Shown here piece after piece: positions 6,629-52,819 of a stretch of DNA of 64,000 bases (the stretch's first letter is position 1; the number at the start of each line of letters is the position of its first letter). This DNA is from Azolla caroliniana (lineage: Eukaryota; Plantae; Polypodiophyta). The stretch spans positions 2,480,001-2,544,000 of the forward strand of contig JBHGNT010000016.1 in NCBI GenBank assembly GCA_043228905.1, written 5' to 3'. The notes under the pieces are model-generated. The model did not search any database. It was not told the origin of the DNA and was given only the letters and a program-made list of their open reading frames with translations. The translations under genes and the position numbers were made by a program.

Positions 6629-6954
6629 CCATAGTACGTCAATTTCGCGTTTGTTAACCCAAACGTTCATTTCCATACGTTTTTTCAAACGAATGCGTAT
6701 GTTATTAAAACATTCTTGTGCTTTTTTTTTACACTTTTTACCTTAACTTTGTTACCCTTAAAAACAATTACCTTATAATAAATCGTGAGTGCAAAAAAGT
6801 ACGGTATTTACCATACTTCGAGGGTGTTTTTCATACTCGGATGATAAGAATGTCGTGAATGTGAATGGTACATTTGCTTCATACTTTGCTTGGAGCCATT
6901 TCACATATGAGTATGATACAAATATTCACATATATAGTATGGCTCGAACTATGC
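6629..6954. mobile_element. Non-autonomous DNA transposon/MITE-like repeat; second copy at 36217-36667
   Basis: Begins CCATAGTACG and ends CGAACTATGC (imperfect inverted termini); shares AAACGAATGCGTATGTT..ACACTTTTTACCTTAACTTT..GGTATTTACCATA with the 36.2-kb copy. Confidence 0.7.
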
Positions 6955-7180
6955 TAGATAGATATAGAAAAGTTACAAAAGTGGCTTTTACAGTTTTCTC
7001 ACAATGCCCTCAAAACATTTTGTATTAATGGATCTCATTTTCTTGCAAGATATTTTATATTAAATCAACTTTGAACGTTCAAAGGCGTGGGCAAGGGTTC
7101 AAAACTCTCACGATTCACTACACGTTTTTGCATTAGCTTGACTTGCTACATACCAACTTTTCATTTTTCTCGTTTTTGAG

Positions 7181-7221
<41 letters not shown>

Positions 7222-7303
7222 CATATAGCCCATCCACACCCATTACACTACATTCACTACTACACTTTTTGGCACTATCTTAACTTGCTACATACATACA
7301 TAC

Positions 7304-9013
7304 ATGGCTTCAAGCTCCACCAATTTTAGCTATGGTTTCCCTACACCCGGCCCCCAAAATCCTACCGGCACACGTGTCATGGATCAGACCTTCTTCCTCT
7401 CCGAAGACCAGTGGAGAAAAGCTCGGGAGCAGGAGCAATTCGATTACATCGTAGTCGGCAGCGGCTTCTGTGCTCTCGCGTTCGCATCTCGGATCTTGGA
7501 GAAGGACCCGAGAGCTCGGCTACTACTGCTAGAGAGGGGCCCATTCTTCTTGCCGGAGCATTGTCAGGCTCTCCCACTCCCATTCGAACACGCGATCGGT
7601 GGCTTCTCGGAGACCTTCCCGTGGACGCTATCCGCCACAACTGCCGAGAGCAAGCCGCCTCACTATGTGACATGGCAGCACGGAATGGTCCCGTTCTTCG
7701 GTGGCCGATCCACTACATGGAGCGGTTGGTGTCCGGAGCCAACCGATGAGGAGTTTGAGGATTGGCCACGAGAAGTCGTGGCCGCAGCTCGGGAATACAT
7801 GCCCCTGGCAAGGGACCTCCTCAATGTGGTCTCATCCGACAAGATCGGGAACTTCCGGAATGATGCCGTGTTCGGGAACCTACAGCGCGAGCTCTTCGAT
7901 TTCCTAGCTGGACGCATCCCCGCGTTCAAGGCGGTCACGAGGGCGATCTATGCGCCCCTTGCTGTCCGGGACCCGCACGAGCAAGGCCTCGACTTCATCA
8001 AATTCTCCACTGTCGGCCCTCTGCTCACGCTGGTCGGGAAGTACCCGGGACAGCTCAAGATCGCCACTAACTGCACCGTGTACCGCATCCTCCACCAGGA
8101 CTCCACGGCCACCGCGCTCGAGACCAGCCGTGGCCATGTCCGCATCCACAGCTCCTCTAAGCTCATCCTCGCAATGGGCAGCATTCCGCCCGCGACCCTC
8201 GTCTTGAACTCATTCCCGTCCCTACCCAATGTCGGCAATCGCTTCACCGCGCATTTCATCACTGCGATCGTGGCCAGGATCCCCCGCGCCTCTTGCACCT
8301 TCGCCGACTCCCTAGATAAGGAGAAGCTTGAATTAGGGGCGATCTACATTGCCGGGGTGGATCCTAAGAACAAATCCGCACAGTTCCATATCCAGCTAAC
8401 CGCGATTCATGACCCCGATCCCGACCGCAATGCTGAGGTGGCATTCCGCTATATGCCGGATGTGGTGGCTACGGCAAGTACCCAGCAACTAAAGACGTCC
8501 CGGGAAAAGTATGTGGTGCTTGTATGCGCCGTGTTGGGCGAGCTTGAGCATAAGAACGCTGATTCGTGGCTCAAACGGGGCGGCAATAATAACGGGGTGG
8601 TCGTAGAAGACCCGACGACAAACGTCGTCTTGCAAGTGAGAGAGACGGAGAATGATTTGCAACTCTGGGATGCTATGGATGAGACCACATTCCAAGTGTT
8701 GGAGCAGGGGCTAGCATCAGCTTTGAATGCAGAAGGTGGGTTGGAGTATTGGCACGGAGAGACGAACGACTGGAGAGCAACAAGACCAAGTAGAGATAGT
8801 ATCCGCGTGCCGGGATTGGTGCACGAGGGGTCCACCATGCACATTGGAGGGGACATTGACCCAGAGGCTGTAGTTGACCTTGACTATCGCCTAAAAGGTG
8901 TCTCCAATGTGTGGGTGACAGGTGGTGCTTTGTGGCCGAAGAGTGGGTCATGGAACCCTACCCTAACGATGGTTGCCTTGACCCAACATCTAGCGGATAA
9001 CTTCCTTGCTTGA
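7304..9013 (+). CDS. Intronless GMC-family FAD oxidoreductase, pyranose-oxidase-like type (569 aa)
   Basis: Rossmann motif FDYIVVGSGFCA..LLLLERG, GGRSTTWSG, ILAMGSI, catalytic His in GLVHEGSTMHIG, VVDLDYRLKGVSNVWVTGG, and Asn motif SWNPTLTMVAL; intact ORF preceded by a TATATATA and (CA)n leader. Confidence 0.9.
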   Translation: MASSSTNFSYGFPTPGPQNPTGTRVMDQTFFLSEDQWRKAREQEQFDYIVVGSGFCALAFASRILEKDPRARLLLLERGPFFLPEHCQALPLPFEHAIGGFSETFPWTLSATTAESKPPHYVTWQHGMVPFFGGRSTTWSGWCPEPTDEEFEDWPREVVAAAREYMPLARDLLNVVSSDKIGNFRNDAVFGNLQRELFDFLAGRIPAFKAVTRAIYAPLAVRDPHEQGLDFIKFSTVGPLLTLVGKYPGQLKIATNCTVYRILHQDSTATALETSRGHVRIHSSSKLILAMGSIPPATLVLNSFPSLPNVGNRFTAHFITAIVARIPRASCTFADSLDKEKLELGAIYIAGVDPKNKSAQFHIQLTAIHDPDPDRNAEVAFRYMPDVVATASTQQLKTSREKYVVLVCAVLGELEHKNADSWLKRGGNNNGVVVEDPTTNVVLQVRETENDLQLWDAMDETTFQVLEQGLASALNAEGGLEYWHGETNDWRATRPSRDSIRVPGLVHEGSTMHIGGDIDPEAVVDLDYRLKGVSNVWVTGGALWPKSGSWNPTLTMVALTQHLADNFLA

Positions 9014-9072
9014 CCATTTCCTCTAGCAACTCGTGGACATGGAACCCATTACCTTCTTGTCTCCATTGGACA

Positions 9073-9076
<4 letters not shown>

Positions 9077-9133
<57 letters not shown>
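9077..9133. repeat. (CT)n microsatellite adjacent to a fragment of the tRNA-derived repeat
   Basis: GTCTCCATTGGACAACCTT just upstream is the reverse complement of AAGGTTG(C/T)CCAATGGAGAC in the 44.1/44.7-kb elements. Confidence 0.85.
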
Positions 9134-9136
<3 letters not shown>

Positions 9137-9344
9137 TGATTGATAAGCTTTCTTATTGTCACATTAGGCCATGTGCATTGTAGTCCATTTGACCATCTCT
9201 TTCTTTCGTAAAATGTCAACATATTCACACTCAAACATAAGATGCCACTATGAAAAATGTGAGAACCAATTATAAATCATCAATACTTAAAAGTTTTAAA
9301 TTAATCGTAAATCATCAACGCTTTTTACTAGTTGTAGTTGAATA

Positions 9345-9760
9345 CTAGGTTGTTTGGTGGAGTCAATATGTGTTCCGACCCTACATTCCATAATGGCATC
9401 CAGTAAATTAAGAATTAAATATGTATGTCATAATCGAGAGAGATTCAGCAAGTATAACCTGTTGTTGTTTGAGGCATACAGAAGGGGTCTTTACTCAAAA
9501 TGTTTAAAATGGTACAAATGATGGGATGGAGATCACCTTACAATTTTTAAGTTATTGGGTGTTACAACATGAGTTGAATATACATAATGTTTTCATGTTT
9601 GAGACATAGAGTTAAAACATATATTAGGAAGTTGAAAGGTATTCTAATGCGGCGCGTTTGGGTATTTATATTTTTTTATGGTTTTAGAGAATGTCCCTCC
9701 TTAAGAGAGAGGTTTAAATCATGTTTTTTACATGCAATTAATACAATTAATTGTATGCTT
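9345..9760 (+). repeat. Diverged copy of the ~590-bp composite repeat at 44095-44680, interrupted by a LINE
   Basis: CCCTACATTCCATAATGGCATC and CAATTTTTAAGTTATTGGG..TTTCATGTTTGA..GAAGTTGAAAGGTATTCT match 44159-44180 and 44342-44455. Confidence 0.7.
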
Positions 9761-11127
9761 GGATTGGATAAGTTGACTACGGAAGAGATAGTTTGGTCAG
9801 GTTGGTTTGTAGGTGAGGGTGATGCACAACTTATCCGTGGTAGGTGCTCAACTAGCAGGGATCGTTTCTGGGGTAACCTAAGTTCTTTAACAGATGATGG
9901 TAGGTGGATGGTAGTGTTGACGGGTAAGTGGTGGCAATTGAACCCATACCCTAAGACACTGGATCATGATTGTAAAATATGGTTTTACGATAACACGCCC
10001 TTATATGATTTGGAGTGGGATCCATTGGAGGTTTGGCGGCTGACTCCAGGAACAAAAATCTTGAAAAAGTTTTTTGAATACAATACCAAGCTAGGAAGAT
10101 AAATCATTGGTTCCAAAACCGTGGGTGTTGGAATGATTCGCAACAACTTGAAGGATAAAGGCATTTCAGACGACGATTTGAAGTCGTTTTGGAGGAGAGT
10201 AAGGGCATTGGATATGCCAGAAAATTTTAAGGCTTGGTTGTGGCTTCTTAGCCATAAGGCAGTACATGTAGGCGAGTGGTTGAGCTCTCGTGGTGGTGAG
10301 GCTAGCTGTAGGTTATGTGGACAAGCTTTGGAATCAATCTCTCACTGTTTTTGGAATTGTACAGAGGCAATTAGCATTTGGAGTAGACGCCTTCGAATCG
10401 TGGCAGCCTGTGGTGTGAAAGGGAACGTTGTGTGGGGCTCAATACAAGAATTGTCCCTAAAAGGGGAAAGCTGGGGTGAACAGTTAAACCCTCAAGGACA
10501 TGGATTTATAACGCACAAATTCAGAATTTTTTGAGGAGATTTGGCTTTATGGTGGCGTGTTTGACAGCATGGCACATCTGGATCAGGCGTTGCAAGTTTG
10601 TTTTTCAGCAGCAAAAGCTCTCGTGTAGGGAGATGATGTTAAATATATGGTTTGATCTTTGTGGCTCGGTTGCACGATCGGTATGATTCAATTCAAGGGG
10701 ATTCAAAAGAAGCAGAAAGGGCAAGGTCCAAGTTCTTGCTAAAATGGAGTAGCTCTCCCATGCTAGTTAAATCTTCATCGAGGCCTAAGTGGAATTACCA
10801 GGCACCTAGGTGGTTGTTTCCACCGATGGCTCCCAATATTGTACATGGGTTGTAATTATGTATGTATAGCTGACACAAACGTGCGTTAGTATAGTCATGT
10901 TACCCGAATAATGTTGTTAGAAAAGAGTTAGTTGGGTAGAGTCGGGGTAAAATAGGGTTTATTTCAATTTTGCTTAAGGATCGGTTGAGTTTTTTTGTTG
11001 TTTTTGTTTGATTTTGGATTTGTTTCTCCAAGTTGTATATGTTGATCCCATTGTGGATTTGGACAAACTTTGTTGTATTCTATTTGCTAACTAATGCGAA
11101 GCAGTGGTTTTTGGAAAGAAGAAGAAG
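9761..11127 (+). mobile_element. 5'-truncated L1-type LINE (3' end of ORF2, zf-RVT region) with 13-bp TSD
   Basis: ORF pieces FKAWLWLLSHKAV..SCRLCGQALESISHCFWNC; (GAA)n tail; TAATTGTATGCTT at 9748-9760 and 11128-11140. Confidence 0.85.
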
Positions 11128-11510
11128 TAATTGTATGCTTTACGAAGAGAGAGAGACACTATGTGTTATAAACCAAATGACGTAAAGTATATTAAGTAAT
11201 ATGAGAGACGATTACAAGGATGGTAACACTACGTATGAAAAGTAAATAAACTCTTATTAATATTTCATATAGCTCTTTTGGCAACCAAAACAATAGTTGC
11301 TGGGAGTGGTTGGATATGATAAATCTGTTACATTGAACACAAAAAATATTCGGGTGGTTGTATTATTGTGATGAATGTATGACAAAAGATATGGTCTTTA
11401 ATGTTGTTGACAATCAAACTCAACAATGTCCAACATGTGAACACATTGTGATGGGTGGGGCCAATTGCATTTAAAGTCCAACTTTCTCATAAGGAATTAA
11501 GTACTATCAT

Positions 11511-11784
11511 TAGGAGTTTGCAATGGCTCGGCCCAAGCTTGAACTAATCCATTGAAAAGTTTTTAAATGGTTTGGTGGTTCGGCTCAAATCATGCTTGAA
11601 CCTCCTTATCGGTTTTAAACTCAGTTTGGCAACGCTCATGCCAAACCAAACTGGGTGAGCCTTAATTGGTTTGGGGATTAGTTTGGTTCAAGTTTGAAAA
11701 CTCTTAAAACGGTAAAGGCTTAACCGGTTTGGTTTGGATGAGGCCTAATTGATTAAGCTGAAATTGAACCATTGTCGATTCCTA
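11511..11784. mobile_element. hAT-like MITE
   Basis: Imperfect TIRs TAGGAGTTTGCAATGGCTC / GAACCATTGTCGATTCCTA, internal AAACC/GGTTT motifs; degenerate 8-bp TSD ACTATCAT / ATTATTAT. Confidence 0.65.
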
Positions 11785-11969
11785 ATTATTATTATATAAC
11801 AATAAGTTAATTAATGAGAAAAAGGATATTGTATAACGCGCTCCCTTGTAACATGATGCATAATAAGAATTTCACTCTTTATAAAGCACCCCTGTCACCT
11901 TCTATAATGTTGTTCATGGTGTAATCTCCTATGTTGCTAATATACATATTTCGTCTTTAATACACGACC

Positions 11970-12533
11970 CTATCTCTCTCTCTCTTTAAATTGGTCATAT
12001 ATGACCTCCGAAGACGATAATATAATCTATCTATCTCTTTAAATTGGCCTCATCATGAACAATAAAATATTGATTATATTGTTTCTCTCTCTCTCCTTAA
12101 ATTGACCATATTTGACCTCCGAATACGATAATATAATCTATCTATCTCTTTAAATTGGCCTCATCATAGACAATAAAATATTGATTATATTCTCTCTCTC
12201 TCTCTCTCTCTCTCTCCTTAAATTGACCATATTTGACCTCCGAATACGCTAATATAATCTATTGTGAAATGCACATAAAAGGAAACCAAACCAGCCCAGC
12301 TAGCTTCATACTTATCATTCAATATATAGAAGATACAAAGAACCCATTTTGGGACAGCCTAGCTACACGTGTCCCAAAATGGTGTGCTAAAAGGGTGGGC
12401 TAAAATGGGTGATGTGCTAAACGAGAGTGGCTAAAAGAGTGGTGTGTTCAAATGCATGCTCTTGCATGAAAGGGACACCACACTATCTATCTCTTTAAAT
12501 TGGCCTCATCATGGACAATAAAATATCAATGAT

Positions 12534-12564
<31 letters not shown>

Positions 12565-12601
12565 TTAAATTGGCCTCATCATGGACAATAAAATATCAAT
12601 G

Positions 12602-12636
<35 letters not shown>

Positions 12637-12977
12637 AAATTGGCCATATTTGACATCTGAAGACCCTAATATAATCTATCTAATCTATCTATCTCTTTTT
12701 AAATTGGCCTCATCATGGACAATAAAATATCGATTATATTCTCTCTCTCTCTCTCTCTCTTTAAATTGGCCATATTTGACATTTGAAGACCCTAATATAA
12801 TCTATCTAATCTATCTATCTCTTTTTAAATTGGCCTCATCATGGACAATAAAATATCGATTATATTGTTTCTCTCTCTTTCTCAATGTTGGCCTCGTCAT
12901 GGAAGATAAAATATCTATTATATTGACTCTCTCTCTCTCACACATAAAAGTGGCCTCATCATTGTCGATAAAATATT
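11970..12977. repeat. Microsatellite-containing tandem array of two alternating related monomers
   Basis: Alternating TTTAAATTGGCCTCATCATGGACAATAAAATAT and TAAATTGG/ACCATATTTGACCTCCGAAGAC..TAATATAATCTATC units separated by (CT)n; an isolated monomer also lies at ~15050-15130. Confidence 0.9.
12263..12482. mobile_element. Solo LTR (220 bp) inserted in the tandem array
   Basis: TGTG...CACA termini; flanked by CTAT at 12259-12262 and 12483-12486, one CTAT more than in uninterrupted monomers. Confidence 0.75.
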
Positions 12978-13837
12978 GGGAAAAGTACCAGGATACCCTT
13001 GGAAGTTTATCTATTTACTAGAATGCCCTTGGAAGTTCCAAACTACCCCTATGTCCAAAAGAATACATTTTATAAAGTAATTATACATAAAATCTACAAG
13101 CCCTATTTACCAAAATACCCTTCAGACACAAATTTCTTTACTTAAGTGATTCATAAGGTGTCATGGGAAAGGAGGCAATGTTCGCAGTTGTAGGACCCCA
13201 AATTAGTGACGATTGTGCATTATTAGATATTTTGTTGAGTCGATAGATATATTTGATTTTGTGGATATTTTTGGAATTATACGTTTTGTAGATGGATCAA
13301 AATTAACATGCGAGCTAATTGCATCATCTCTCACAGCTTGTCAAAGCTCCTTCAATGAGTCAAACTACCTTCTCTCCACCAAAGCCATTCTATGAGAGAC
13401 ATCAACCATTGAAATGAGACAGAGAGAAGAAGAAAAGAAAAGAAAAATCTTTGAAGGATATAGGAAAATGAGAATTTAGAAGGGAAAGGGGATTGCATAA
13501 TAAAAGAAGAAAGAGCAAACCTAAACATAGAGAAATGACCACATATAAAGAGAGAGAGAGAGAGTGTGTGTGTGTTATGGATCCTGATGTTGAAGACGAG
13601 ATTGATCAGCCCAATGAACAAGGAAGAAAAGAAAGACTACATTGTTAGGTACAAAGGAAATAAGTAAAGAAATTTGTGTTTAAATGGTATTATGGTAAAT
13701 AAGGCTTGTAGATTTGAGTGTATAATTACTTTATAAAGTTTGTTTTTTTGGACATAGGGGTACTTTTGTAAATTTAGAACTTCCAGGGGCATTTTGGTAA
13801 ATAGACAAACTTTTAGGGGTATCCTGGTACTTTTCCC
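12978..13837. mobile_element. Non-autonomous Mutator-like element with ~170-bp TIRs
   Basis: GGGAAAAGTACCAGGATACCC...CACAAATTTCTTTACTTA mirrored by TAAGTAAAGAAATTTGTG...GGGTATCCTGGTACTTTTCCC; 9-bp TSD TAAAATATT / TAAAATATA. Confidence 0.9.
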
Positions 13838-15433: not shown

Positions 15434-18400
15434 ATGATGCTGGAGAAGCTTCGAGCGACTGTTCGTGATTGCTTGAGCAAGCACATGTACTCATCTGCAA
15501 TTTTCTTCGCTGATAAGCTCGTCACCATGGCTGTAAATTCCACTCAGGATCTGTACATGCACGCTCAGGCGCTTTTCCTCGACAAACAATGTCGAAGAGC
15601 TCTGCATCTGCTCAAAAGTCATAATCTTGTTTCCGCTGATCTCAGATTCAGATATCTAGCGGCCAAATGTCTGGTATGCAAGTAAGGTTCAACAAGACTG
15701 AAGTATTGCAAAAAATGCTTTTGTTCAAGTAATGTTTTGTTTCTAATTTGTTTGCAAGAAAAACAAGCACAGAGACTAAAATAATGACAATGTTGTATGC
15801 TGATCAATGAAATGTTACACTGACGTAATCTTCAAAACTGACATAATGAGACGATAAACTGACAGCCCGAAATTATGTACAAGTAGGGTTCAAGATTGAC
15901 ATCAAGAAATTGTAAACCGTAGTAAGGAATTGCCTGCATGTAAGGCTCAAGTCTGCAGTAATATAAATGTTGTATGCAATTAAGTAAGCTTCAACAAGCC
16001 CACTGAACTTGTGAAATGTTATATGCAGGCAATGTTTTATGGATGTATTGTAAAATATTCAAATTTAAGCGGTTAAACATTAAACTAAAAGTATAATTCA
16101 ACAAGACTGAAGTTGTGATAATGTTCAACTGAAATAATCAAATGTTAAACTGAAGATGTAAGGAATATATGCAAGTAAACAAAGTAAAGAAAAATAAGGA
16201 ATTGTATGCAAATAAACATGACTGGTATTAAGTAGGGTTGGTTTGCATCAGGAAGAGCTCAAAGAGTGGAATGAATGCTTGCTTATGCTCGGGGAGAGTG
16301 ACGTTGATGAACATGGAAATGTACACATGGAAGACCAAGACAGCGAGTTCTCTGGAAAAGATGGAGAGGATCGAGAGATAAATGTAAATCTACATTGATT
16401 TCTTATTGCTTGCTTGTTAGAGTCACGTGGGAAAATCCAGATTCTCTTTACATCATCACATGTTTGATGTATGGTTTTTATTAACCAATATTTTTCATTG
16501 TTAAAGTGGATGATAGTCCTTCATTCGTTAGCTATTTGCTGTACTAATGAATTGCTTGAAATAATTTGAGCAAACATTATAATTATGTGCCTGTACAGTA
16601 CGATCGGTTGGCAAAATTGGAAGATATTCATCCGGTAGTAAACATGATTCATGGCACTAGGAAGCTTGTATCATGAAACTTCATTTGTCTTTTGTCAGAT
16701 TGGTCATAGATCATTCGGGTCGTTTGTGGTGAGGGCCCCATAGTGAGACCTGGATTCCTTTTTATCAATTTCTGCTAGGTATATCTGTAAGGCAAGTTCC
16801 CACCCTGCAGACACATTCTAGTTAAAATTTGACCATAATTCTTAGATGAGTAAATCTAGATTAGCTTAGACGCTTGTTCAGGCTTTCCCCAATAACTAAG
16901 TGCTTGCGTTCTGTTAGGGTGTACTGGTTCCTAAATTATCAATTAAAGTGAGAGGAAGAGGGAGAGAGGTAGGTAGGGAGGGAGAGAGAGATTAAACCCT
17001 GGATCAGATAACTGCAGCAATCTGTCTGCTTCGAGGTCGCGCATTTGAAGCTTTGGAGAACCGTGTGCAAGCAGTACGATGGTGAGTTTGTACTTCAGCC
17101 CTAATATTCTTCTAAGAAGATGCACTAAAACAGACTTTTTCCCACACACCCATCGTTTATTCAAATCAAGAGTTTCATTCAAATTGAATATGCGGATCTT
17201 GACGGCCTTGTGCCGGCCATGGTCATTATTGCAGCTCTGCATGCCATTTCTATATTTTCGTTCTTTCTCATGTGAACTTTGGCCCTATCTTTGCTCTTAA
17301 AGTTTAATTACTGTCTATATCTTTATTTTACGATACAAAAACTGCTGTAGCATAACTGAAAAAGTGGTTTTTTTTAATGATCTCTTATTCAAATCAAGAG
17401 TTTCGTTCAAATTGAATATGTGGATCTTGATGGCCTTGTCATCGTCATTATTGCACGTTCTGCATGCCATTTATTGAATTCCACAATCAAATTCTATATT
17501 TTTGTTCTTTCTCATGTGAGCTTTGCTATAGGTCTATCTTTGCTCTTCAAGTTTAAGTACGTTCTATATCTTTATTTTACGAAAGTTTTACAATACAAAA
17601 ACTGCTGTAGCATAACTGAAAAATTGGGGTTTTTTAATGATCTCAATGTACATGCTGATTTTAGTATGGTCTCACTTGTGTTTTACAAATTAATTCCTTT
17701 CTCTATTGAATGTATCCATATAATCAATTTCGATATCATTTATAGCTGATTTCTGGAATTCCTGGTATTGCATCAATATAGATGTATAAATTCTCCATGC
17801 GATCCATAATTATGTGATGTTTTGGGAGAGTATTTATATATCCACTGTTAATTGCTTCTATGGTTTGTAAAAATAATCTTACTGCAGTTTGACCTGTTCG
17901 TAACATGTTATATCCTGCATTTCTAAGCATATTTCATTATTTTTTTCCCCACTCTCATCTGTGCATTGAATTCATGATAACTTGACTCACACAATTACAG
18001 GTTACCTGCGGTGGTAAGTATTGCTGCATGTTGCATTATGGACTAGTAAGGATTGGACACTGACTTTTTCTAAATTAGATTGAAACAGTTGGTTTCAAAA
18101 GTTGGAGGAGTTCCTAGTATGAACAAACAAATCACGTGGTTATGTTCTCTTCATTGGTGATGACTATGCTTGTACCAGGCTTTCCTGGAGTATATAGATG
18201 TATAAGCTTTATAAAATTATGTCTGAAATTTCTAAAGTGCTGTATTGAAATGTGGTGCTGCATAAGCAAAAGTTGGGCATTTATATAAAAAGTAAAATGG
18301 GACGCACTTCGTTTGTAATCTGTATTCCTGGTTAGTTTGCTCTAACATCACATGTGCACATGCACATGCATAAATGAGCTCGCGTTTCATGTACAGAAAG

Positions 18401-21400
18401 TATGAAGTTAGGGTTTGCAAGGCAGGAGGATATGCCATGAGTCACAGTGATGGAACCCAAATATGTGTAGTTTTGGTAGTAAAGTTGTCTGGGTCATCAT
18501 CTAGTAAAGTTTGATGTGATTTGAAAGGTTTCTAGTTTTAACAATTATTCTCTGTACATTTCTCTGGGCCTGTTTATTGTTCTCTGGTTCACCACAATCA
18601 ATACATCAATCTACCAGTGACAATTGAAACCTTGTACAAGGTCTTATATATTGTCAGTGATCCTTTGATTCTGTATATTAGTGCTGTTTAATAGTGGAAC
18701 ATGTTTACGAGAAATGATAGACAGAGTTTTGGTCACATGTCTTGAATTTCTTTTGACTTTGTAGGTATCAAGCTGCGTTAAAGACGGATCCGTATTGCTA
18801 TGAGGTATGAGATTTTTCAAATAATTCCAGAGTGTAATTGTTAATAGTTTAACAATTTATCTGTAGAACTATCTAGGATCCTTATTCAGAAACACGTATG
18901 AAGGCATTATCTTCTATGATCATATATAAACAAACAATCATGGAGGGGTTGTATTCTCCATATATGAGCTGGATTCTGTATTATTGTCTTAAATGGATGT
19001 AGACATTCCTTTTAAAATGAATGTGGATAATATAATTTATTGAGTTCAATGCATCATCTTGAAAACACTTAATTACATTCTTTACAAAATGTATGCTCTG
19101 TATTCTCTGATACTCAATGAGATGGATGGAGTCAAGCAATGTAAAGTAGGTTAGGGGATGGGGTTAGGCAACAAAAGTTGTATAAAACAAGAATGTACGT
19201 GATCCTTCTAAAAGAAAAATGAATAGTATGGTTTGACTGTAGCAGGCTTTAGGTAGAGAGTTGGGTGTTGGTTCCTTATAGAGAGTTCTCAGCTGGATTT
19301 TTTGTTTGCTTCTATGCTCAGATTATTAAAAAAATTAATCCAGCTCAAGGAAACAAAAATGTTTCCTTACCTGTGTAAAAAGTATCAAATATTGGATCTA
19401 AAATTTAATTTGCCTCTCATTTGTTGACACTCTTTCTCAGTTTCTATATAATGCTTTAAGATCATTTCATTTACTGGCATTCTTTGATAATTTTCATTGC
19501 TTAAAGCAGGCATTTGAACGTCTTATTGAAAATCACATGTTGACTAGTGATGAAGGTACTTTCTTGACATCTGCTGGAATTTTCGAATGTATATTGGAGT
19601 GAAACATGTAATGTTTATTATTCTGATTCTGGCTGCTAGAAACAAATCTACTGTCATCTCTCAAGTTTGAAGAAGAGGATCACTGGTTGTATCTATTATA
19701 TTCTTGCAATTTGAAGAAGGTTAGATATCTTGAACTGGAATGAGAATTACTTTTTAAATGATACAATAGAATTTGATTTTGTATTCTTATCACTGTCAAG
19801 GATAGTATGATCAATCTGGTGCAATGGAGTCCAAGTTTTCTGAGTTAGAAAAGGAGCCATTTGACTCAGGTTTAGATGGGGATGTAGTCGTGTGCTCATT
19901 GAAGGATAATTCGGATTTGGTGGCCTGCAAATCAGACTATTATTACCATCTTGGAGAGTACCAAAAGTGTTATGAAACAACAAAAATGTAAGTTCATGTA
20001 CATTATTGCATATCAGTGTATTTAAAGATATACTGTGCTATTCATAAGCAAGCATATAACTTGCAGACTAACATTTCTGTTTTCCTTCATTTGAATCAGG
20101 CTATTAGAAACCGACCCTTATCATTTAAAGTGTATGCCAATGCATTTAGCTTCAGCTGTTGAGCTCGGGCGGAAAAATGAGCTATTTTTGAAGGCGCACG
20201 ATCTGGTTCAGGAATATCCATTAAAGTAAGCTTCAGAGATGTAAATTTAAAATTTGTACAGGAAGCATAATAATTACTGCCATCCTCTACTCCCAGAATA
20301 GTGACAGAGACATTAGTATTGTTGGTGTACATATTTATACTTGCAATTTTTTGCGATCGATGTATATTCACTTGAATGATGGGCATAGATTTTTACTGAG
20401 GTTTTCCAGGTTTATGCCTTGTCTCTATGATTTTCAACACTTGGATTGTAGGTAGCTGAAATATTAAAGCCATGTTTTAGGACAAAAGTGTTTGCAACTA
20501 TTAATTTTCTGATGTAAAACTCTGATTGCTATCTACAGTTAATGTATGATAGTCTGATTTCTTTAGAATTTTAAACCCTGGCTCAAAGTTTATAAAGCTT
20601 ATGATCTACAAATACACTATCATGAATGTGACACAGACAAAGTTTAACCAACGACCTAAAGGCTGTAAATCTTAAAGCCTTATAATTTCACCATCATATT
20701 GAGATTGCAAGGCCTTTACTAGCCCATTTCCTACCAAGTTTTACTGTAATGAGATTGAAGGGCAGATGAAAGTGTTGTCATTTCTCCTAGTCCCTTTAAG
20801 AGTAGATCCTCTGGCCTCAATTATACAAAGATTTCCAACATATAGATATAGTCTCTTCATTCGACAGACACATACACAGAAAAATGATTATCAAGTCAAT
20901 GAAGATGTTTCTGAAATTATTTGAGTTCATTATTCATTCAGGTGTATAACATGAGGCATAACCATCTTATCTGGATATACAGGGCTTTATCATGGTTTGC
21001 AGTCGGGTGCTATTATCTTTGCATTCGTCAATTTGATCACGCACGGCGCTATTTTTGGTATTAATCTGTTATAAAACGTTTTGTCAATGTTAATTCAACT
21101 GTGAGTTCTCATTGATCTGTGTTGGTATCTATGGAACAACTTCTTTGCAGTAAGGCCACCACCTTAGATGGTGCTTTTGCTTCTGCATGGATTGGTTTTG
21201 GACATGCATATGCTGCTCAAGATGAGAGTGATCAAGCAATGGCTGCATACCGAACTGCTGCACGTCTCTTTGCAGGGTCAGTTACTATGCTGAAAGGCTT
21301 TTAGTACCATGATAAACTATTATATATTCAATCTAATTTTCTTAAGCTGTACAGATGCCATCTCCCTGTCCTCTGCATTGGAATGGAGTACCTAAGAACA

Positions 21401-22335
21401 AATAATCTTAATCTTGCACACCAGGTGCGTTCTCAATGAAACTGATCTTATGTTGCTATGTATGAATGTACTTGTATATTCAGGCATGTTTTGCCTCTGA
21501 ATTCCCAATTTAACTAGATAAAACTGGAAATCTGCAGTTCTTTAGCAATGCAAGGCGAATATGTCCCACGGATCCACTAATATTCAATGAAATGGGTGTA
21601 ATGGCTTATAGGAACAAAGAGTAGGGAACAAGTGATGTTATGCAATTTATTACATAGTTCTTAGTGTACATTCTTATAATAATGATTCCAACACAGTTAT
21701 GAAACAGCTGTTCGCAATTTTCGAAAAACTTTACGATTGGTTCCTCTTCCCCTCACTGATGCTTGGGAACCTACTGTTGTCAACTTGGCGCATTCATTGC
21801 GTAAGCTAATGTATGGAAACCTTTGCCTTTGTTTGAGTCAAGATTAAAAGTTTTTTTTAGCTCTGTTTGGTGTGTACTAATTCATTGTTCTGTAAACAAA
21901 ACAGGTTCTATGCAGAGGCAATAAATTTCTATGAAAAAGCCTTGGCCCTGTGCTCAAGAGGAGCCGGAACCTATGCCGCCCTTGGGTTTACTCACCATTT
22001 GCAAGTAAATTGTTATTGAGTTTTTTTGTGTATTTTTACTTGGAAATTGATAGCTTTCATTGATGATTAACACATTTGTTTGTTCAAATATATTGTAGGG
22101 AAACACTGCTGTAGCAATAGAATATTACCACAAGGTGAAAAACTGGTTACTATGCTTTATACATAAAGATACTCTCTCGGTAAAAATTAAGAAATCTTAA
22201 AATGATATTTAACAGGCACTTGGGTTCAAGCCTGATGATACATTTACGGCGGAAATGCTTACAAGTGCCGTCATTGAAGAGTGTTCTCACATGTCTAGTG
22301 TTCGGGAGCCACACACTGTAAAGGCTGTGTCCTGA
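15434..22335 (+). CDS. APC6: Anaphase-promoting complex subunit 6 (CDC16 homolog, TPR protein), about 16 exons
   Basis: Exons with GT-AG introns: 15434-15673 (MMLEKLRATVRDCLSKHMYSSAIFFADK..RYLAAKCL), 16252-16383 (EELKEW..DREIN), ~17008-17081 (ITAAICLLRGRAFEALENR), ~18765-18804, ~19510-19555, ~19640-19719, ~19806-19987, ~20100-20225, ~20983-21057 (ALSWFAVGCYY), ~21151-21276 (AWIGFGHAYAAQDESDQAMAAYRTAARLF), ~21355-21424, ~21538-21620, ~21698-21810 (WEPTVVNLAHSLRKL), ~21905-22005, ~22099-22134, 22216-22335 (ALGFKPDDTFTAEML..TGA). Confidence 0.95.
17157..17644. repeat. Tandem duplication (~230-260 bp) in an APC6 intron
   Basis: TTATTCAAATCAAGAGTTTC..ATACAAAAACTGCTGTAGCATAACTGAAAA..TTTAATGATCTC twice. 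Confidence 0.85.
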
Positions 22336-23001
22336 AATATTTAAATGCAGCAATTATCTTAATGCCATTGTGAAAAGATCTAATGAGCACAAGAATTTAG
22401 TCTGGTTTGTTGTTAGGCCACTAACTTGCACCCTGTACCATGCACAGCTGCATGATAGAGATATCCTTCGGTAGAAAGCTCTGGGTTCATATCTTTTAGG
22501 CCAATGCTAGTTTGAATAGTCATTGTGTGAACCTTATAGCTGAATTTAATGAAGGGGAATGTAAACTCGTGTAATTCTTGCTCATAATAAAAAGTATTCA
22601 GCTCCTGGAAGCTTGTATTATTATGTCGATCGAGCAGGTCTGAATTCATGTAGCAATGTCATGAGACTTCGAAGTGTTCGAAAATGAAGACAAGGTTGAT
22701 CTGCTTTTTAATATGATATTGTGAAATACTTGACTTGTGTAATGGATGGATCTTTGTTTTGATAATCTCAATGTCCTTTGTAGATGATCCTGCAGGATAT
22801 AGCAAAGGTACTTTTCCAAATGATCACATTGAAAAATGGGAAGTCAGGTTTAGTTCATTGTATTAGTGTCTTCCATACACATGCTTAACCTTCTTGGCTG
22901 GAATTCGCATGACATTTATACTTCATACTTGTCAAATTATTCAGTGTCAATCAGCATGTGAAGCTGTGATATTTATCTCTTGCATGTCTTTATACTACGT
23001 T

Positions 23002-23444
23002 CATGGTGGTTGATGAACATGATGCTTCATCCTGATCGATGAGATGAAGTTTAATACCTTGATGGCAAAATTTTACTGAATGTCCCACAAAGTGTACATG
23101 GTTGATGAACATAATGTTTCATCCTGATCGGTGAGGTGAAGATTAATACCTTGATGTCAAAATTTTACTGAATGTCCCACTAAGTGTACATCGTGGTTGA
23201 TGAACATGATGCTTCATCCTGATCGATGAGATGAAGATGGCAAAATTTTACTGAATGTCCCACAAAGTGTACATGGTGGTTGATGAGCATGATGCTTCAT
23301 CCTGATCAATGAGATGATGGCAAGATTTTACTGAATGTCCCACGAAGTGTACATGGTGGTTGATGAACATGATGCTTCATTCTGATTGATGAGATGAAGA
23401 TTAATACCCTGATGGCAAAATTTTACTGAATGTCCCACAAAGTG
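23002..23444. repeat. Minisatellite, five 80-95-bp units, between the convergent APC6 and TBCD 3' ends
   Basis: Unit CATGGTGGTTGATGAACATGATGCTTCATCCTGATCGATGAGATGAAG[ATTAATACCTT]GATGGCAAAATTTTACTGAATGTCCCACAAAGTGTA; the bracketed part is deleted in units 3 and 4. Confidence 0.9.
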
Positions 23445-24242
23445 CGTTGAATACAATCTCCAATCACTAAGAGAAGCATAGTTCACTTGGTGGTTTGAAT
23501 CGACTCCTAAAAAGAAAATTCCTCAGTTCAAAACAAAATTATGCAATTACAACCAAAAATCTGCCCATCAACATTGAGCAAATGGTGTAGTATCCACTCC
23601 AGATTAGTGGTTTCATAATGCAAATCAAAGAGTGGCTCTCTCTGGATAGTGTTTTGGTTATATTTATTACTTGACTTGCACATATGTGGGATCGTAGTTG
23701 GAGACCTGAACAATTTCAATGCTTACACCTAGTATTCCTTGTTATTTCTTCCCAAGGCTTCTGTGAGCTTCTTTTAGGTATTGGTTTTGATTCCATTATA
23801 CACTTATTCCTACTACAAGAATATGAAAATTTGCCTTTTTCTGTTTGTAAAGGAATTGGTTGGAGGGAAGGGAGGAACCTCACTACTTAGTGTCTTCATG
23901 GAGGGAGGTCTGAAAAGTGAGCTATGGTCATTGTCATAATTTGAGCAAATATTGTATTTGAGAGGTGAGTACCAAGACATGTATTGAGATATTTTGGCTA
24001 AACCAAACTCACAAAAATTGATTGAAGATCATTAATCTTGAGTTGGGGACGCACAAAAAGATCAATTGGATTAAACACTTTCATTGACAAGCTTCATATG
24101 AAATTTAAAACAATGTTGCAAAATTTCTTGATGAATATTTCTGGCTGTGAATTTGAGAATTTTTTATCTTGATGAATATTTTGTGTTTATATGCCAGCAG
24201 ACTTGTGAGGGCAAGAGACGTAATTTCTCAAGATTGAAAATG

Positions 24243-35913
<11,671 letters not shown>

Positions 35914-36119
35914 GGCACTCTTTCAATCTTCCGCTGCCTCTGCCTGAGATCGATCTCTCGATCGTCGCCTGCGTCGGAGAAGGCAGGTTCTTCTTCTTCG
36001 TTTCTTGCAGAGAGATCGATCCTGCGCAAGTAGTAGTAGCAGGGGCGCCACTAGGCCTGCAAATAATTTTTTGTTATTTTTTTTGAATTATAAATAATAT
36101 CGTATTATTTTCAAATCTC

Positions 36120-49239: not shown

Positions 49240-49312
49240 TCCGCCCCCACCTAACCGCGCATCCACCGGCATGCGCCAAATTGAGTCGGGACGGAGAAAA
49301 CCGGTCCAGCCT

Positions 49313-52300
49313 TCATTCCCCGCCCGTCGGTTCTTCCTCAGTTTCGGATCGTTCGTCGTCGCGGTCCAGGCCAACCGGATCCGGCTCGTCGTCGTGACGC
49401 TTCTTGAACGCTTTGATCCGCTTCCCTGCTACTAGTATCGCCATTCTCATACCGTCGAGTTCCGCCAGATGGTACGTCCCATTGTCGTTGGCGCTTTGTA
49501 CCACGTAAGGCCCGAACCACCTTCTTGCGAACTTCCGTGTCGCTCGGTGCTGGTTGTCAAGGCTGCTGTCGTAGACTAGCACCCAGTCGCCTTCCTCGAT
49601 CTTCTTCGGTCGGAGCCGGTGCGTTCGGTCGAACCGGGCTTTGTTCCTCATCCTTGCTTCCCGAAGCTTTTCCGCAGCCTGCTCCACGTCCTCCGGTCTT
49701 CGCTCGAGTTGTCGTATACGCGCCGCCAACAGTTCCTCCTGGCTCATCTCGTCTCTCCAGTCCACGGTTGCCCACGAGGAGATCGTACGTTCCATCGGCA
49801 TGACCGGCTTCTGCCCAAACATGAGTTCTGTCGGCATGAATCCGGTTACCGAACTGTGCGTAGTTCGGTCCGCCCACAACGCGTAAGGCAGCAGTCGCGG
49901 CCAGTTCCCGACTTGACCTCCGCATGCCCGAACTAACGCCTTGACGATCGGTCCGTGTCCGCACTCCACCTTCCCATTCACCTCCGGATTATACACAGTG
50001 GTAAGCGAGAGCTTGACTCCTAGCCGGTCGAACAGCTCCTCGGCCTCTTCGGCGTCCAACTCCCCGCGATCAGCCACGATCTTCCCGACGCACCCGTACC
50101 GGCATATCACGTCCTCAATCAGGAATCGACATACGGCTGAGGTCGTTTTGTTCTGAAGGGCCCGGCCTTCTACCTGGTTCGTCAGATCTTCCCGAGCCAG
50201 GACCAGATACCGCATCTGTCCTACTCCCATCGGCATCGTCACCAGGTCTACCATCCATTTGAAGTGGATGGTCGGAGGGTACGTAGGGTACGTAGGGTGA
50301 AGCTCGTCCTGATGTCGGACTACGGAGTGCATCTAACAGCTCTCGCAAGTCATCACGAACCGATGCACATCCCGGTACAGTCCCAGCCACCAGTACTTCC
50401 CCTTTATCTTCTCGAACGTGGCTCACGTTCCACGGTGTCCAGCCCAAGGGCTGTCGTGGTAGGCCGTCAGCAGCTCCTCATGTTCTTCCTTCATCGCCAC
50501 CACCCGGAGCGGGACACCGTTCCTCTTCTTCGGGTGCTTCCATAAGTATCCGTCCCGGAGAAAGAATCGGTAAGCTTTCTTCCGGATCCGGTTGGCCTCG
50601 TCCTTCGTCCATGACGCATCCGGCGTCATTGTCCTCAAAAATCCCCCGATCTGGAGCCACTCGCCATCGTACCTGTTCTCGTCGAAGTCGTTAAGTGCCG
50701 GAGTGCTCGTCCCATCGGTTGTTACGTACGCCGCCTCGAAGAAGTCCACGCCGACTTCTTCGTCCTCTGAAACCATGCCGCCCTCGTCATCAAACCTTGC
50801 CCTCGAAAGCATGTCGGCCATGGCGTTGTCCTTTCCGGAAATGTGTCGTATTTCCGGGTCCAGGGACTTGATGTACGCTATCCACCGGAGCATCGCCAGG
50901 TCCGGTGTCGCGCATCCGGAAACCATGCCGAGAATCGGCAGGCAATCCGTCTCGCTAACCACTTCTGTCCCGATCAAGTAGTCTTTGTCGGCTTTTACTG
51001 CCAAAACGATACCCCAGAGTTTGCGTTTAACCTGGGCGTACCCTCGCTGTCGTTCACTGAGAACCTTCGCGCCGAATCGGATCGGGAACCGAATGTCGTT
51101 CTTGTCCTCTTGGTTGACGACCCATCCGATCCCGGTCGGACTCGTATCCACTGTTATGTATACCGGGGTACCCTTCCCGTAGACAGCCTTCCGGAGCGCC
51201 GGTGCTGCCGCAAGAGCTTCTTTCAGCTTCCGGACCGACTCCGTGTGCTCGTCTCGCCGCTCGAATTTTCGCCCTTTCTTCAGCAACCCGTATAGCGGCT
51301 CCGCAACGTGGGCGTAATGCGGGATCCATATGTGGTAGAACGCGCATGCCCCCAGGAACCTCCGAACTTCCGTAACCGAGCTACAATCGGTCTTCATCGC
51401 GGAGATGGCTTCTACCTTTGCCGGAGACGGCTTCCGGCCATAAGGTCCACATAGGTGTCCGACCACCAGGATTTCCGATTGCCCGAAGGCCGATTTCTCC
51501 CTGGAGAAGGTGAGCCTCGCATCCTCTAGCCTTTGTAGCACCTTCTCGCAGTCGTCGATGTGTGTCGCCATGAATCGCCGGCATCCGTCCAGCCCGACTG
51601 TCTCGTCCTTCTCCTCCACCGGGCACCCCTTGATCGGGATGTCGTCTAGAAACGGCATGGTGATGTCCGGGATGCAATCCCTCAGTACCTTGTTCATTGC
51701 ATTCACCATGTGGGCTACCGAGTTGGTCCCTCCTTGTGGCAGGGTACACATTCGCACTAGGCCGAGGGGGGTTCGCATCGTCGTAATGTCTCTGCTCTCC
51801 ACGGCTAGCTGGAACTGGTCGTACCCCGAGTACAGATCACCGACCGAGTAAATCGACCTTCCGGCGAAGGCCTCTGCGAACTCGTCTATGGTCGGTCTGA
51901 TTCCTGCGTTCCGAATGGTCACTCTGTTGACCGGTTGCAGGTCCTGAATGAAGCGCAATGTTCCGTTTTTCTTTGGTACGATAAACCATCGGTTCGAGTA
52001 TGGGGCACTCGACGGTTCGAGAATGCCCATATCGACTTTTTGCCTCAATAGCTCCATCAACTTTGGGATGTGGGCTCTCGGTACTGGAATCGGCTTGAGA
52101 TTCCACGGCACATGTGGTACCGTGAATATCACCATCGTCTCCACAATCGTCGGGTCTACGCACCCGATCTCTTCCGGCGAAAACGCGAAGGCTTTCCCGT
52201 GCCTTCCGAGCATTCTCCGAAACCGGTCTTCCTCCGCCGGCAGTAGGAACCCGCCCCCACCGATCTTGAGCTCTCGGAGCGTCCCGTCGGTGAAGGTGTG

Positions 52301-52819
52301 TCCTATGCAGGCCGGATCTCGTAAACTGGGGTCCCACGCAACCCCTCTGATTCGGGACTCACTGCCCTCCGGTAAGGGTGCCGCGACGGGCCTTACCTTC
52401 CGGTCCATAGTCTTGTACTTCGTGCTAACTCGGCCCGCCCGATCCGACCCGAGCCCCCGACTGAAGTTCGCGATGACTTTGTACATCTCTTCGGAACATA
52501 CTGGTATCGTCCGGTCTTCATTAAGGTCTTCTCCGGCTACCTCCCCCAGCATTCCCAAGGTGTCGTCGAAGGAGACCGCCTCCACGGCTCCGCTGATTTC
52601 CTCGTCCGGGCCGAGAACTCCGCACGCTCGAAGTCGCACTTCCGCCCTTGTCTTTTCTCGGTCGACGATGCCGACTATCATACACCCTCTATTGTTGGAG
52701 AAGCAGAATTTCCTACTTATCGTACAGGGTTCCTTTGGTTTCGGTTCTATCGTACAGTCATGGGGTCTTTCCCGAGTGTCCGGGCTGTCTCGGCCCCACG
52801 CCTTGGCAGCCCTCTCTAA
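49313..52819 (-). pseudogene. Gypsy pol (RT, RNase H, integrase) with two nonsense mutations
   Basis: RT: LRFIQDLQPVN, GDLYSGYDQ, LPQG, PFLDDIPIKG; RNase H: VDTSPTGIG, ETDC, NAMADMLSR; integrase: YHDSPWAGHRG..TCESC, VDLVTMP, VADRGE, WFGPYVV. Stops at ~50423 and ~50333 are in one frame. Confidence 0.9.

What the first reader, a model, noticed from the sequence alone, without database searches (positions are those of the whole stretch)
7304..9013. Intronless pyranose-oxidase-like GMC flavoenzyme in a plant genome: candidate horizontal transfer
Seen: a single 1.7-kb exon, visibly GC-richer than its flanks and than the 16-17-exon neighbours, with no hydrophobic signal peptide, embedded among plant repeats. 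Knowledge: the His (VHEGST) / Asn (NPTLT) catalytic pair and the GGxSxxW segment are typical of the pyranose 2-oxidase / C-glycoside oxidase branch known from bacteria and fungi; it does not resemble the plant HOTHEAD or mandelonitrile lyase proteins as I recall them. The flavinylated His of fungal P2O (STHW) is Thr here (STTW), implying non-covalent FAD. Inference: a microbe-derived cytosolic oxidase that may act on sugars or glycosides or make H2O2 for defence.
Basis: partly seen in the sequence, partly recalled or inferred. Interest (0 to 1): 0.8.

Follow-up and report, generated by a model that had tools for sequence, protein, structure and literature searches.

The report
Bacteria-derived flavin oxidase gene in fern
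This is an intact, intronless fern gene for a flavin enzyme of an unstudied, mostly bacterial family that early vascular plants likely took from bacteria, and it is predicted to oxidise sugars or glycosides, but it is not a true pyranose oxidase.

Summary
The ORF is real (569 aa). The host is a leptosporangiate fern. A 99% copy sits on another chromosome-sized contig, DNA depth resembles the neighbouring gene's, spliced-RNA runs cover it, and dN/dS is about 0.3. It belongs to an uncharacterised GMC subfamily: 51-57% identical to proteins of many bacterial phyla, and also present in Diphasiastrum, Ceratopteris, Adiantum, Selaginella, some fungi and protists. Pyranose/C-glycoside oxidases are the nearest solved folds but only 14-18% identical, and three of their substrate-contact or flavin-loop residues differ, so it is not a member. 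A single eukaryotic clade is rejected (AU p=0.0014), supporting transfer from bacteria. A transfer specific to this fern is not shown: plant monophyly is not rejected (p=0.12-0.18) and an indel links it to the other plant copies. High GC is not evidence of foreign origin here. Bacterial copies sit beside a Cff1-like cupin (14 of 42 loci), and distant relatives are fused to 3-ketoglycoside hydrolase domains, which points to keto-sugar chemistry. All six sequences of the other plant clade carry a nuclear-localisation-like tail; this copy lacks it and has diverged fast. Substrate untested.

The parts
7304..9013 (+). Intronless ORF, 569 aa GMC flavoprotein (P0001) of an uncharacterised bacterial-type subfamily
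   Evidence: model pLDDT 90.6
7331..7432 (+). N-terminal extension (about residues 10-43, GFPTPGPQ...), strongly conserved across the subfamily; role unknown
   Evidence: alignment A1; outside the range aligned to most solved GMCs, which starts near residue 37-45
7439..7537 (+). FAD-binding Rossmann start (FDYIVVGSGFCA...LLERG); third glycine of GxGxxG replaced by Ala
7559..7576 (+). HCQALP loop, aligned to HVKNI of PsG3Ox (Lys55 = Gln88). Family has HFQNLP: Cys87 (Phe in 152 of 152) and Ala89 (Asn in 144 of 152) are lineage-specific changes
7700..7735 (+). Flavin-loop GGRSTTWSGWCP; Thr138 = His127 and Ser140 = Thr129 of PsG3Ox
8822..8824 (+). Predicted catalytic His507 (His in 152 of 152 relatives; = His440 of PsG3Ox)
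8954..8956 (+). Predicted catalytic Asn551 (Asn in 152 of 152 relatives)
9011..9013 (+). Stop right after the last helix: no basic NLS-like tail, unlike the six sequences of the other plant clade; no SKL-type end
6631..13690 (.). About 7-kb segment duplicated on contig C17 (97-98% identical in the long blocks) holding the second, intact gene copy (12 nt and 4 aa differences); APC6 and TBCD are not found within the 60 kb fetched around that copy

Best explanation
This is an intact, transcribed fern gene for a GMC-fold flavoprotein of an uncharacterised, mostly bacterial subfamily, likely acquired from bacteria once near the base of vascular plants, and predicted to oxidise a hydroxyl of a sugar or glycoside to a keto group in the cytosol. 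Shown: the gene, its fold, the conserved His507/Asn551 pair, purifying selection, and the scattered distribution. Inferred mechanism: non-covalent FAD takes a hydride from C2 or C3 of the sugar, His507 helped by Asn551 removes the hydroxyl proton (as established for PsG3Ox/P2O), and reduced FAD is likely re-oxidised by O2 to give H2O2, since no Fe-S cysteine cluster or Tat signal was found. In bacteria the keto-sugar would then pass to the adjacent DUF985 (Cff1-like) cupin, or in distant relatives to a fused DUF1080 domain, for rearrangement or cleavage. In this fern lineage the gene likely lost a nuclear-localisation tail kept by other ferns and a clubmoss, changed active-site loop residues and duplicated, which would fit a shift of substrate and a role in specialised or defence metabolism.
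For: Family: 462 hits; the 120 listed are 51-57% identical over 96-100% of the query and include bacteria of at least six phyla plus Diphasiastrum, Ceratopteris and Adiantum. Selaginella, a foraminiferan, a euglenid and four fungi are in the wider family. Ten named eukaryotic sequences as one clade: rejected, AU p=0.0014. Rare in bacteria: 1 of 401 genomes of one phylum, that one being the seed genome; on 2 rhizobial plasmids at 54%. Plant monophyly including this gene not rejected: p=0.179, 0.12, 0.118. The YW..VHE spacing of 22 is shared by this protein and all six plant-clade sequences (18 of 171 overall; 25 in the Bacillota pair), and a 2-residue insertion is shared with Diphasiastrum and P0027 (9 of the 137 sequences the pattern could read). 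Searching with the Diphasiastrum protein finds no other family member in this genome. Fold: top VIA hits are C-glucosyl oxidoreductase Z 33.1 (rmsd 2.7, 438 aligned) and pyranose oxidases Z 32.4 and 32.1; the profile search ranks the same enzymes first. Partners: DUF985 cupin adjacent in 14 of 42 non-redundant loci with at least 900 nt downstream, on several separate branches; 6 of 8 long distant relatives scanned are fused to PF06439 (30% identity over 533 columns). Real gene: DNA contig depth 72 against 50-60 on the non-repetitive bins of the APC6 region in run X1; contigs of three runs that cover APC6 only at exons also cover this gene; dN/dS 0.32 against a 93-94% identical form (Fisher p=0.001). 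NLS-like K-K/R-x-K/R tail in 6 of 6 plant-clade sequences and 1 of 156 others.
Against: No activity data for any family member was found. The fold ranking is nearly tied: fatty-acid photodecarboxylase Z 31.7 and alcohol oxidases Z 30.6-30.8 follow closely. PsG3Ox substrate residues Lys55 and Gln297 align to Gln88 and Ile319. The free trees place this protein outside the starred plant clade (99/94; 99/95), on a long branch, and it shares only 9 of 66 fern-signature columns against 18 for Diphasiastrum. The cupin and DUF1080 links come from bacteria, mostly from subclades other than the plants' neighbours, and no background rate was computed. The donor is unstable: Priestia/Paenibacillus are sister but not. 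No tree was rooted with an outgroup. O2 as acceptor is inferred only from absences.
Confidence: 0.5

Rival explanations
1. Same enzyme type, but a second, independent bacteria-to-fern transfer that replaced or stood in for the NLS-bearing copy of other ferns (possibly shared with, or parallel to, the tail-less Selaginella copies).
For: Outside the starred plant clade in all trees. Only 54% identical to Ceratopteris while a TBCD exon is 75% identical, and Ceratopteris is 65% identical to the more distant Diphasiastrum. No NLS tail. Joins Selaginella at 87/84.
Against: AU tests do not reject plant monophyly. Shared indels with the plant clade. No close bacterial relative on its branch. Both it and Selaginella are long branches. 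It would need loss of the inherited copy.
Confidence: 0.25
2. The family oxidises the sugar of nucleosides or nucleotides (salvage or detoxification) rather than free sugars or plant glycosides; the nuclear-targeted plant copies would keep this role.
For: Nuclease or phosphatase genes (S1/P1, PLD-like, PAP2, XendoU, 5'-nucleotidase, HAD/NIF, phosphoesterase) lie near the gene in 11 loci. purH, purC, a Nudix enzyme and a beta-RFAP synthase surround it on a Mesorhizobium plasmid. A 28% relative overlaps a MiaA/isopentenyltransferase gene on Clavibacter plasmids. NLS-like tails in the plant clade. A GMC-type pseudouridine oxidase exists (PMC10127198, search listing only; its chemistry is recalled).
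Against: 6 of those 11 loci belong to one clade. No background control. This copy lacks the NLS-like tail. Only 122 neighbour ORFs were scanned (110, mostly from a list of 217; 12).
Confidence: 0.15
3. A GMC oxidase of a non-sugar alcohol (aliphatic, aromatic or amino alcohol), with the pyranose-oxidase likeness reflecting ancestry only.
For: Z-scores to alcohol oxidases and HMFO are within 2-4 of the top hit. G3Ox substrate residues are not kept.
Against: Sequence profile, Atlas features and both fold searches rank sugar oxidases first. Cupin and DUF1080 partners act on sugars (PMC8092285, PMC9007349, passages).
Confidence: 0.08
4. Contamination or chimeric assembly of bacterial DNA.
For: No contig bridges the gene to APC6: the longest X1 piece spans 6899-9068. 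No long reads were available.
Against: Two copies on two 19-Mb contigs with shared repeat-rich flanks. Depth like the nuclear neighbour. Related forms in runs of several organism labels. Present in spliced-RNA runs. No bacterial protein above 57%.
Confidence: 0.02

Closest known systems
Bacterial glycoside 3-oxidases / pyranose oxidases (PsG3Ox 7QF8/7QFD/7QVA, DaCGO1 8QVE, CarA 7DVE, Oscillatoria POx 9FL2) and fungal P2O (1TT0); PMC10646112 and PMC10807413, passages read
   Same: GMC fold (best Z 33.1, rmsd 2.7 over 438 residues), His/Asn catalytic pair, homologous H-x-x-N loop and GG-x-x-x-x-W-x-x-x-C-P flavin loop, soluble single-subunit design, patchy distribution attributed to transfer
   Different: 14-18% identity; no His in the flavin loop; Thr129 is Ser; Lys55 and Gln297 not kept; family-specific N-terminal extension; GSGFCA instead of GxGxxG; partner is a DUF985 cupin
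3-ketoglycoside pathway: LacABC-type dehydrogenase plus DUF1080 (PF06439); PMC9007349, passages read
   Same: Distant relatives of this family (30% identity) are fused to DUF1080, implying the same oxidise-then-cleave logic
   Different: This subfamily has no DUF1080, no Cys cluster and no RRxF signal; no cytochrome c gene was seen among the neighbours scanned
Bacteria-derived genes of ferns and lycophytes: Tma12, aerolysin-like, PAD (PMC9477723, PMC12448838, passages read)
   Same: Bacterial gene found in ferns and lycophytes, with an unclear number of transfers (as reported for aerolysin-like genes), local duplication
   Different: A flavoenzyme, not a toxin or chitin-binding protein; low copy (2 here); one plant clade carries an NLS-like tail
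Native plant GMCs (HOTHEAD/mandelonitrile-lyase-like, long-chain alcohol oxidases; names recalled from motifs)
   Same: Superfamily and PF05199 domain; five such loci occur in this genome
   Different: Not retrieved by this protein at E<=0.001 in the own genome; score much higher on PF05199 (74-86 against 51.5 bits); almond hydroxynitrile lyase only Z 26.8

Membership tests
GMC oxidoreductase superfamily | C-terminal GMC domain PF05199 above the curated cut-off | tested here: met
   49.3 bits against 24.6
GMC oxidoreductase superfamily | GMC fold (FAD Rossmann domain plus substrate domain) | tested here: met
   Z 22.6-33.1 to 29 GMC representatives, next fold 17.9; model pLDDT 90.6
GMC oxidoreductase superfamily | Catalytic His/Asn or His/His pair | tested here: met
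   His507 and Asn551, each in 152 of 152 relatives; His507 aligns to His440 of PsG3Ox
GMC oxidoreductase superfamily | N-terminal domain PF00732 / canonical GxGxxG | tested here: inconclusive
   PF00732 not matched at E<=0.01; motif is GSGFCA, as in most of the family; the fold is kept
GMC oxidoreductase superfamily | FAD binding and alcohol oxidation | not testable with these tools
   needs purified protein
Pyranose oxidase / C-glycoside 3-oxidase (AA3_4) | Family HMM TIGR02462 above cut-off | tested here: not met
   19.1 bits against 544.9
Pyranose oxidase / C-glycoside 3-oxidase (AA3_4) | His in the flavinylation motif (AAHW in PsPOx; PMC10807413) | tested here: not met
   Thr138 here; Leu/Met in 151 of 152 relatives
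Pyranose oxidase / C-glycoside 3-oxidase (AA3_4) | Thr after the motif that H-bonds FAD N5 (conserved in all POx per PMC10807413) | tested here: not met
   Ser140, in 152 of 152 relatives; a conservative change
Pyranose oxidase / C-glycoside 3-oxidase (AA3_4) | Substrate-contact residues Lys55, Gln297 (PsG3Ox; PMC10646112) | tested here: not met
   align to Gln88 and Ile319 in the profile alignment; Arg94 and Gln340 could not be mapped reliably
Pyranose oxidase / C-glycoside 3-oxidase (AA3_4) | C2/C3 oxidation of pyranoses or glycosides with O2 | not testable with these tools
   assay needed
Membrane-linked FAD sugar dehydrogenases (FAD-GDH, FDH, LacA) | Cys-rich 3Fe-4S motif in the flavin subunit (feature recalled) | tested here: not met
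   no C-x(2-6)-C-x(2-6)-C in the query or 3 relatives checked
Membrane-linked FAD sugar dehydrogenases (FAD-GDH, FDH, LacA) | Adjacent small-subunit and cytochrome c genes (feature recalled) | tested here: inconclusive
   none among 122 neighbour ORFs scanned, but not all neighbours were scanned
Bacteria-to-plant horizontal transfer | Eukaryotic homologues do not form one clade | tested here: met
   AU p=0.0014, 10 against 17 rows; many long branches in the set
Bacteria-to-plant horizontal transfer | Integrated in the host genome, not a contaminant | tested here: met
   no long-read bridge available
Bacteria-to-plant horizontal transfer | Supported nesting inside one donor clade | tested here: inconclusive
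   other plant copies sister to Bacillota at 99/98 and 96/88 but not; this copy unplaced; no outgroup root
Bacteria-to-plant horizontal transfer | Absence from algae, bryophytes and seed plants | tested here: inconclusive
   none named among the 120 listed of 462 and of 472 hits, or the 24 clusters looked up from the representative search; no Streptophyta-dominated cluster among the Atlas rows shown; the unlisted hits were not seen

The most novel reading that the evidence does not exclude
Early vascular plants captured a bacterial keto-sugar-forming oxidase and aimed it at the nucleus by adding an NLS, giving ferns and clubmosses a nuclear flavin oxidase that acts on nucleosides or nucleotide sugars; this fern lineage then stripped the tail, remodelled the active-site loop and duplicated the gene to make, with its own Cff1-like cupin, a furanone-type signal or antimicrobial that acts on associated bacteria.
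Probability: 0.1. Interest if true: 0.8.

Novelty: new variant of a known kind. Interest (0 to 1): 0.45.

Why it matters
It adds a flavoenzyme to the short list of bacteria-derived genes of ferns and lycophytes, and it flags a GMC subfamily of several hundred sequences for which no characterised member was found. The family has a testable partner (a Cff1-like cupin, whose substrate is itself unknown per PMC8092285). The NLS-like tail in six plant-clade sequences, absent from nearly all bacterial ones, is an unexpected sign of how a transferred enzyme was re-addressed in plant cells. As a transfer event alone it is an ordinary kind of finding.

Tried and rejected
High GC as a sign of foreign origin: rejected, native GMC ORFs reach GC3 0.62-0.70. 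Recent transfer specific to this genome: not supported. Formycin-cluster reading of the Mesorhizobium neighbourhood: passages of PMC8724604 gave no GMC or Rieske mention, left as a lead. Transposon capture of the 7-kb duplicated segment: no target-site duplication or terminal repeat seen by eye at its ends. Viral contigs: no relative. The look-up of sequencing runs listed no holder on record as RNA; RNA status was inferred afterwards from exon-only cover of APC6. Bacterial phylum scan: 1 of 401, gave no new neighbourhoods. The 84-row tree was a quick tree dominated by long branches and was not used to place the query. The first structure model (pLDDT 76.6) was superseded by the second. Whether the fern's own spliced DUF985 gene was co-transferred was not tested. 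No complex prediction was run, as no binding is claimed. Literature: nine searches found no paper on this subfamily or its plant members; the gene-id search hit only unrelated ids of other plants; PMC9477723 has 0 occurrences of 'oxidase' or 'oxidoreductase' and PMC12448838 0 of 'GMC' in the main text. Supplementary HGT tables of fern-genome and land-plant HGT papers were not opened and may list this family. PMC13267403 (passages) added nothing on the Cff1 substrate.

Full report
Observation. The window holds one uninterrupted ORF at 7304-9013 (+) encoding 569 aa. It is GC-rich (0.568; GC3 0.667) against its flanks and five neighbour exons (GC3 0.22-0.50). Pfam gives GMC_oxred_C above cut-off; no NCBIfam family comes near its cut-off, pyranose oxidase included (19 against 545 bits).

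Host and integration. A TBCD exon from the window is 75% identical to Ceratopteris and Adiantum and 57-65% to named bryophytes, a lycophyte and seed plants, so the host is a leptosporangiate fern; the genome is 523 Mb, small for a fern (recalled). A second intact copy lies on contig C17 (12 nt, 4 aa differences) inside a 7-kb duplicated segment (window 6631-13690); the 60 kb fetched around it gave no APC6 or TBCD match and its long ORFs look like retrotransposon parts. In DNA run X1 one contig spans 6899-9068 at depth 72, against 50-60 on the non-repetitive bins of the APC6 region. Runs X4, X8 and X13 cover APC6 essentially at exons only, one X13 record joining 21165-21275 to 21697-21810 across a gap that fits two exons, so they behave as RNA; all three hold contigs over this gene. 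Contig depth cannot rank expression. X4 carries the C17-type letters at the six listed sites in the 5' half, so transcription of the C16 copy itself is not separately shown; X8 has an exact match to the shared 3' end. A 93-94% identical form occurs in X8, X13, X17, X19 and, beside the near-identical form, in DNA run X3; it was not found in G000. Over codons 11-202, 39 listed differences of X8 give dS 0.151, dN 0.048, ratio 0.32 (Fisher p=0.001; the list was cut at 40 of 99 rows and is assumed complete for that range). Contamination is very unlikely, though no read bridges the gene to APC6.

GC control. Five other PF05199 loci exist in the genome. Their longest ORFs have GC3 0.48, 0.62, 0.46, 0.70 and 0.67. 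High GC in a long exon is therefore normal here and says nothing on origin.

Family. The homologue search gave 462 hits; the 120 listed are 51-57% identical nearly end to end and come from Bacillota, Gemmatimonadota, Myxococcota, Cyanobacteria, Bacteroidota, Pseudomonadota and others (phyla recalled from genus names), with three named plants: Diphasiastrum, Ceratopteris, Adiantum (same picture from the Ceratopteris query). A profile search and look-ups of 30 proteins added Selaginella, a foraminiferan, a euglenid and fungi. The gene is rare in bacteria (1 of 401 genomes in one phylum) and occurs on plasmids. The nearest solved folds are C-glycoside/pyranose oxidases (Z 33.1, rmsd 2.7, 438 aligned with the better model) at 14-18% identity, with photodecarboxylase and alcohol oxidases close behind (Z 31.7-30.6). 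Mapped on PsG3Ox (PMC10646112, passages): His440 = His507, His127 = Thr138, Thr129 = Ser140, Lys55 = Gln88, Gln297 = Ile319. His507, Asn551, Ser140 and Gln88 are invariant in 152 relatives, and position 138 is Leu/Met in 151. So it works like a pyranose-oxidase-type enzyme at the catalytic pair but is not a member. The query departs from 14 of 187 near-invariant columns, the most of any of 153 sequences (median 1), including Phe87Cys; Asn89Ala is a further change in the same loop.

Origin. Ten named eukaryotic sequences as one clade are rejected (AU p=0.0014), which supports several transfers from bacteria rather than an old eukaryotic gene. Diphasiastrum, Ceratopteris, Adiantum and three unnamed Logan proteins (P0008, P0027, P0053; assumed plant, not verified) form a starred clade (99/94; 99/95), sister to Priestia and Paenibacillus in those trees but not when fungi and Paucibacter are added. 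The query lies outside on a long branch in every tree, yet holding it with the ferns (p=0.179), the plant clade (p=0.12) or all plants with Selaginella (p=0.118, 2.9 log units) is not rejected; the unnamed members of these groups were chosen after seeing a first tree. The trees used 48, 37 and 27 rows chosen by me from 153 close and about 25 distant proteins. Indels, which the trees ignore, favour the plant clade: a spacing of 22 between YW and VHE in the query and all six plant-clade sequences (18 of 171 overall, the other 11 including a Flavobacterium group), and a 2-residue insertion shared with Diphasiastrum. Against this, it shares 9 of 66 fern-signature columns, against 18 for Diphasiastrum and up to 11 for a bacterial-type sequence. 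The genome has no second, conventional member. I favour one old acquisition with fast evolution in this lineage (about 0.65) over a separate transfer (about 0.25). Absence from bryophytes, algae and seed plants is suggested but not shown, as only the top 120 hits are listed.

Function. Of 78 bacterial and metagenome loci, 63 were non-redundant and 42 had at least 900 nt downstream; 14 of these 42 have an adjacent DUF985 cupin gene, usually with a PAS domain (13 downstream, 1 upstream; 12 by Pfam, 2 by BLAST), on several separate branches. I take DUF985 to be the family of yeast Cff1 (link recalled); Cff1 is a sugar-isomerase-like cupin needed for the furanone MHF (PMC8092285, passages). Six of 8 long distant relatives are fused to PF06439, the 3-ketoglycoside hydrolase family (PMC9007349, passages). 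Both point to oxidation of a sugar hydroxyl followed by rearrangement or cleavage. Eleven loci have nucleases or phosphatases nearby, six of them in one clade, and one plasmid locus lies among purine-type genes, which keeps nucleosides in play. No Fe-S cysteine motif or RRxF signal was found, so a soluble oxidase using O2 is inferred. The fern has its own spliced DUF985 gene on C1; a link to this gene is untested.

Localisation. All six plant-clade sequences end in a K-K/R-x-K/R motif resembling a monopartite NLS (consensus recalled); only 1 of the other 156 examined does. This protein and the Selaginella proteins end right after the last helix. A cytosolic location for this copy is predicted, not shown.

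Prior knowledge. Bacteria-to-fern transfers are well known (Tma12, aerolysin-like, PAD; PMC9477723 and PMC12448838, passages). Nine literature searches found nothing on this subfamily or its plant members; supplementary HGT tables were not seen. Earlier scan notes held no look-alike; others on this genome also call it a likely fern.

Verdict. A real, conserved, bacteria-derived GMC gene of an uncharacterised subfamily, likely an old vascular-plant acquisition, predicted to be a sugar or glycoside oxidase. New variant of a known kind; interest 0.45.

Noticed in passing
P0002, P0008, P0027, P0053, P0064, P0077 (C-termini): All six plant-clade homologues carry a basic K-K/R-x-K/R tail resembling an NLS, absent from their bacterial neighbours: a possibly nuclear GMC oxidase in ferns and clubmosses.
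   Followed up: partly
L007:4987-16730: Mesorhizobium plasmid cluster with BtpA/SgcQ, Rieske, amidohydrolase, PRAI, this GMC family, PurH, PurC, Nudix and beta-RFAP synthase: looks like a C-nucleoside biosynthetic cluster in a Lotus symbiont (resemblance to formycin clusters partly recalled).
   Followed up: partly
L008:5905-8540: On a Clavibacter plasmid a distant GMC relative (28%) overlaps a gene annotated MiaA (isopentenyltransferase-like), a possible cytokinin-related pair.
   Followed up: no
L003:3468-15870: A Hymenobacter locus clusters this GMC with a LodA-type lysine oxidase, its flavoprotein partner, an amine oxidase and a TPP enzyme: an island of likely H2O2-producing oxidases.
   Followed up: no
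P0393, P0398, P0402, P0417, P0418, P0421: A sister GMC family fused to DUF1080 (PF06439): a single-chain oxidise-and-cleave glycosidase candidate.
   Followed up: partly
window 15434-22336 (+) and about 24240-35922 (-): APC6/CDC16-like and TBCD genes, convergent, ordinary housekeeping neighbours used as controls.
   Followed up: partly
window about 49300-54600 (-): GC-rich Ty3-type LTR retrotransposon with gag-like, RT, RNase H and integrase ORFs in several frames; described only.
   Followed up: no
window 23000-23450: Imperfect tandem array of about 60-70 bp units between APC6 and TBCD, seen by eye.
   Followed up: no
L084:2905-3610: A 705-bp very AT-rich insertion 3' of the C17 copy, absent from the window copy; likely a MITE.
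   Followed up: no
runs X3, X8, X13, X17, X19: A 93-94% identical form with a different 3' UTR co-occurs with the near-identical form in some runs (equal depth in DNA run X3), suggesting a paralogue or a second subgenome not in G000.
   Followed up: partly
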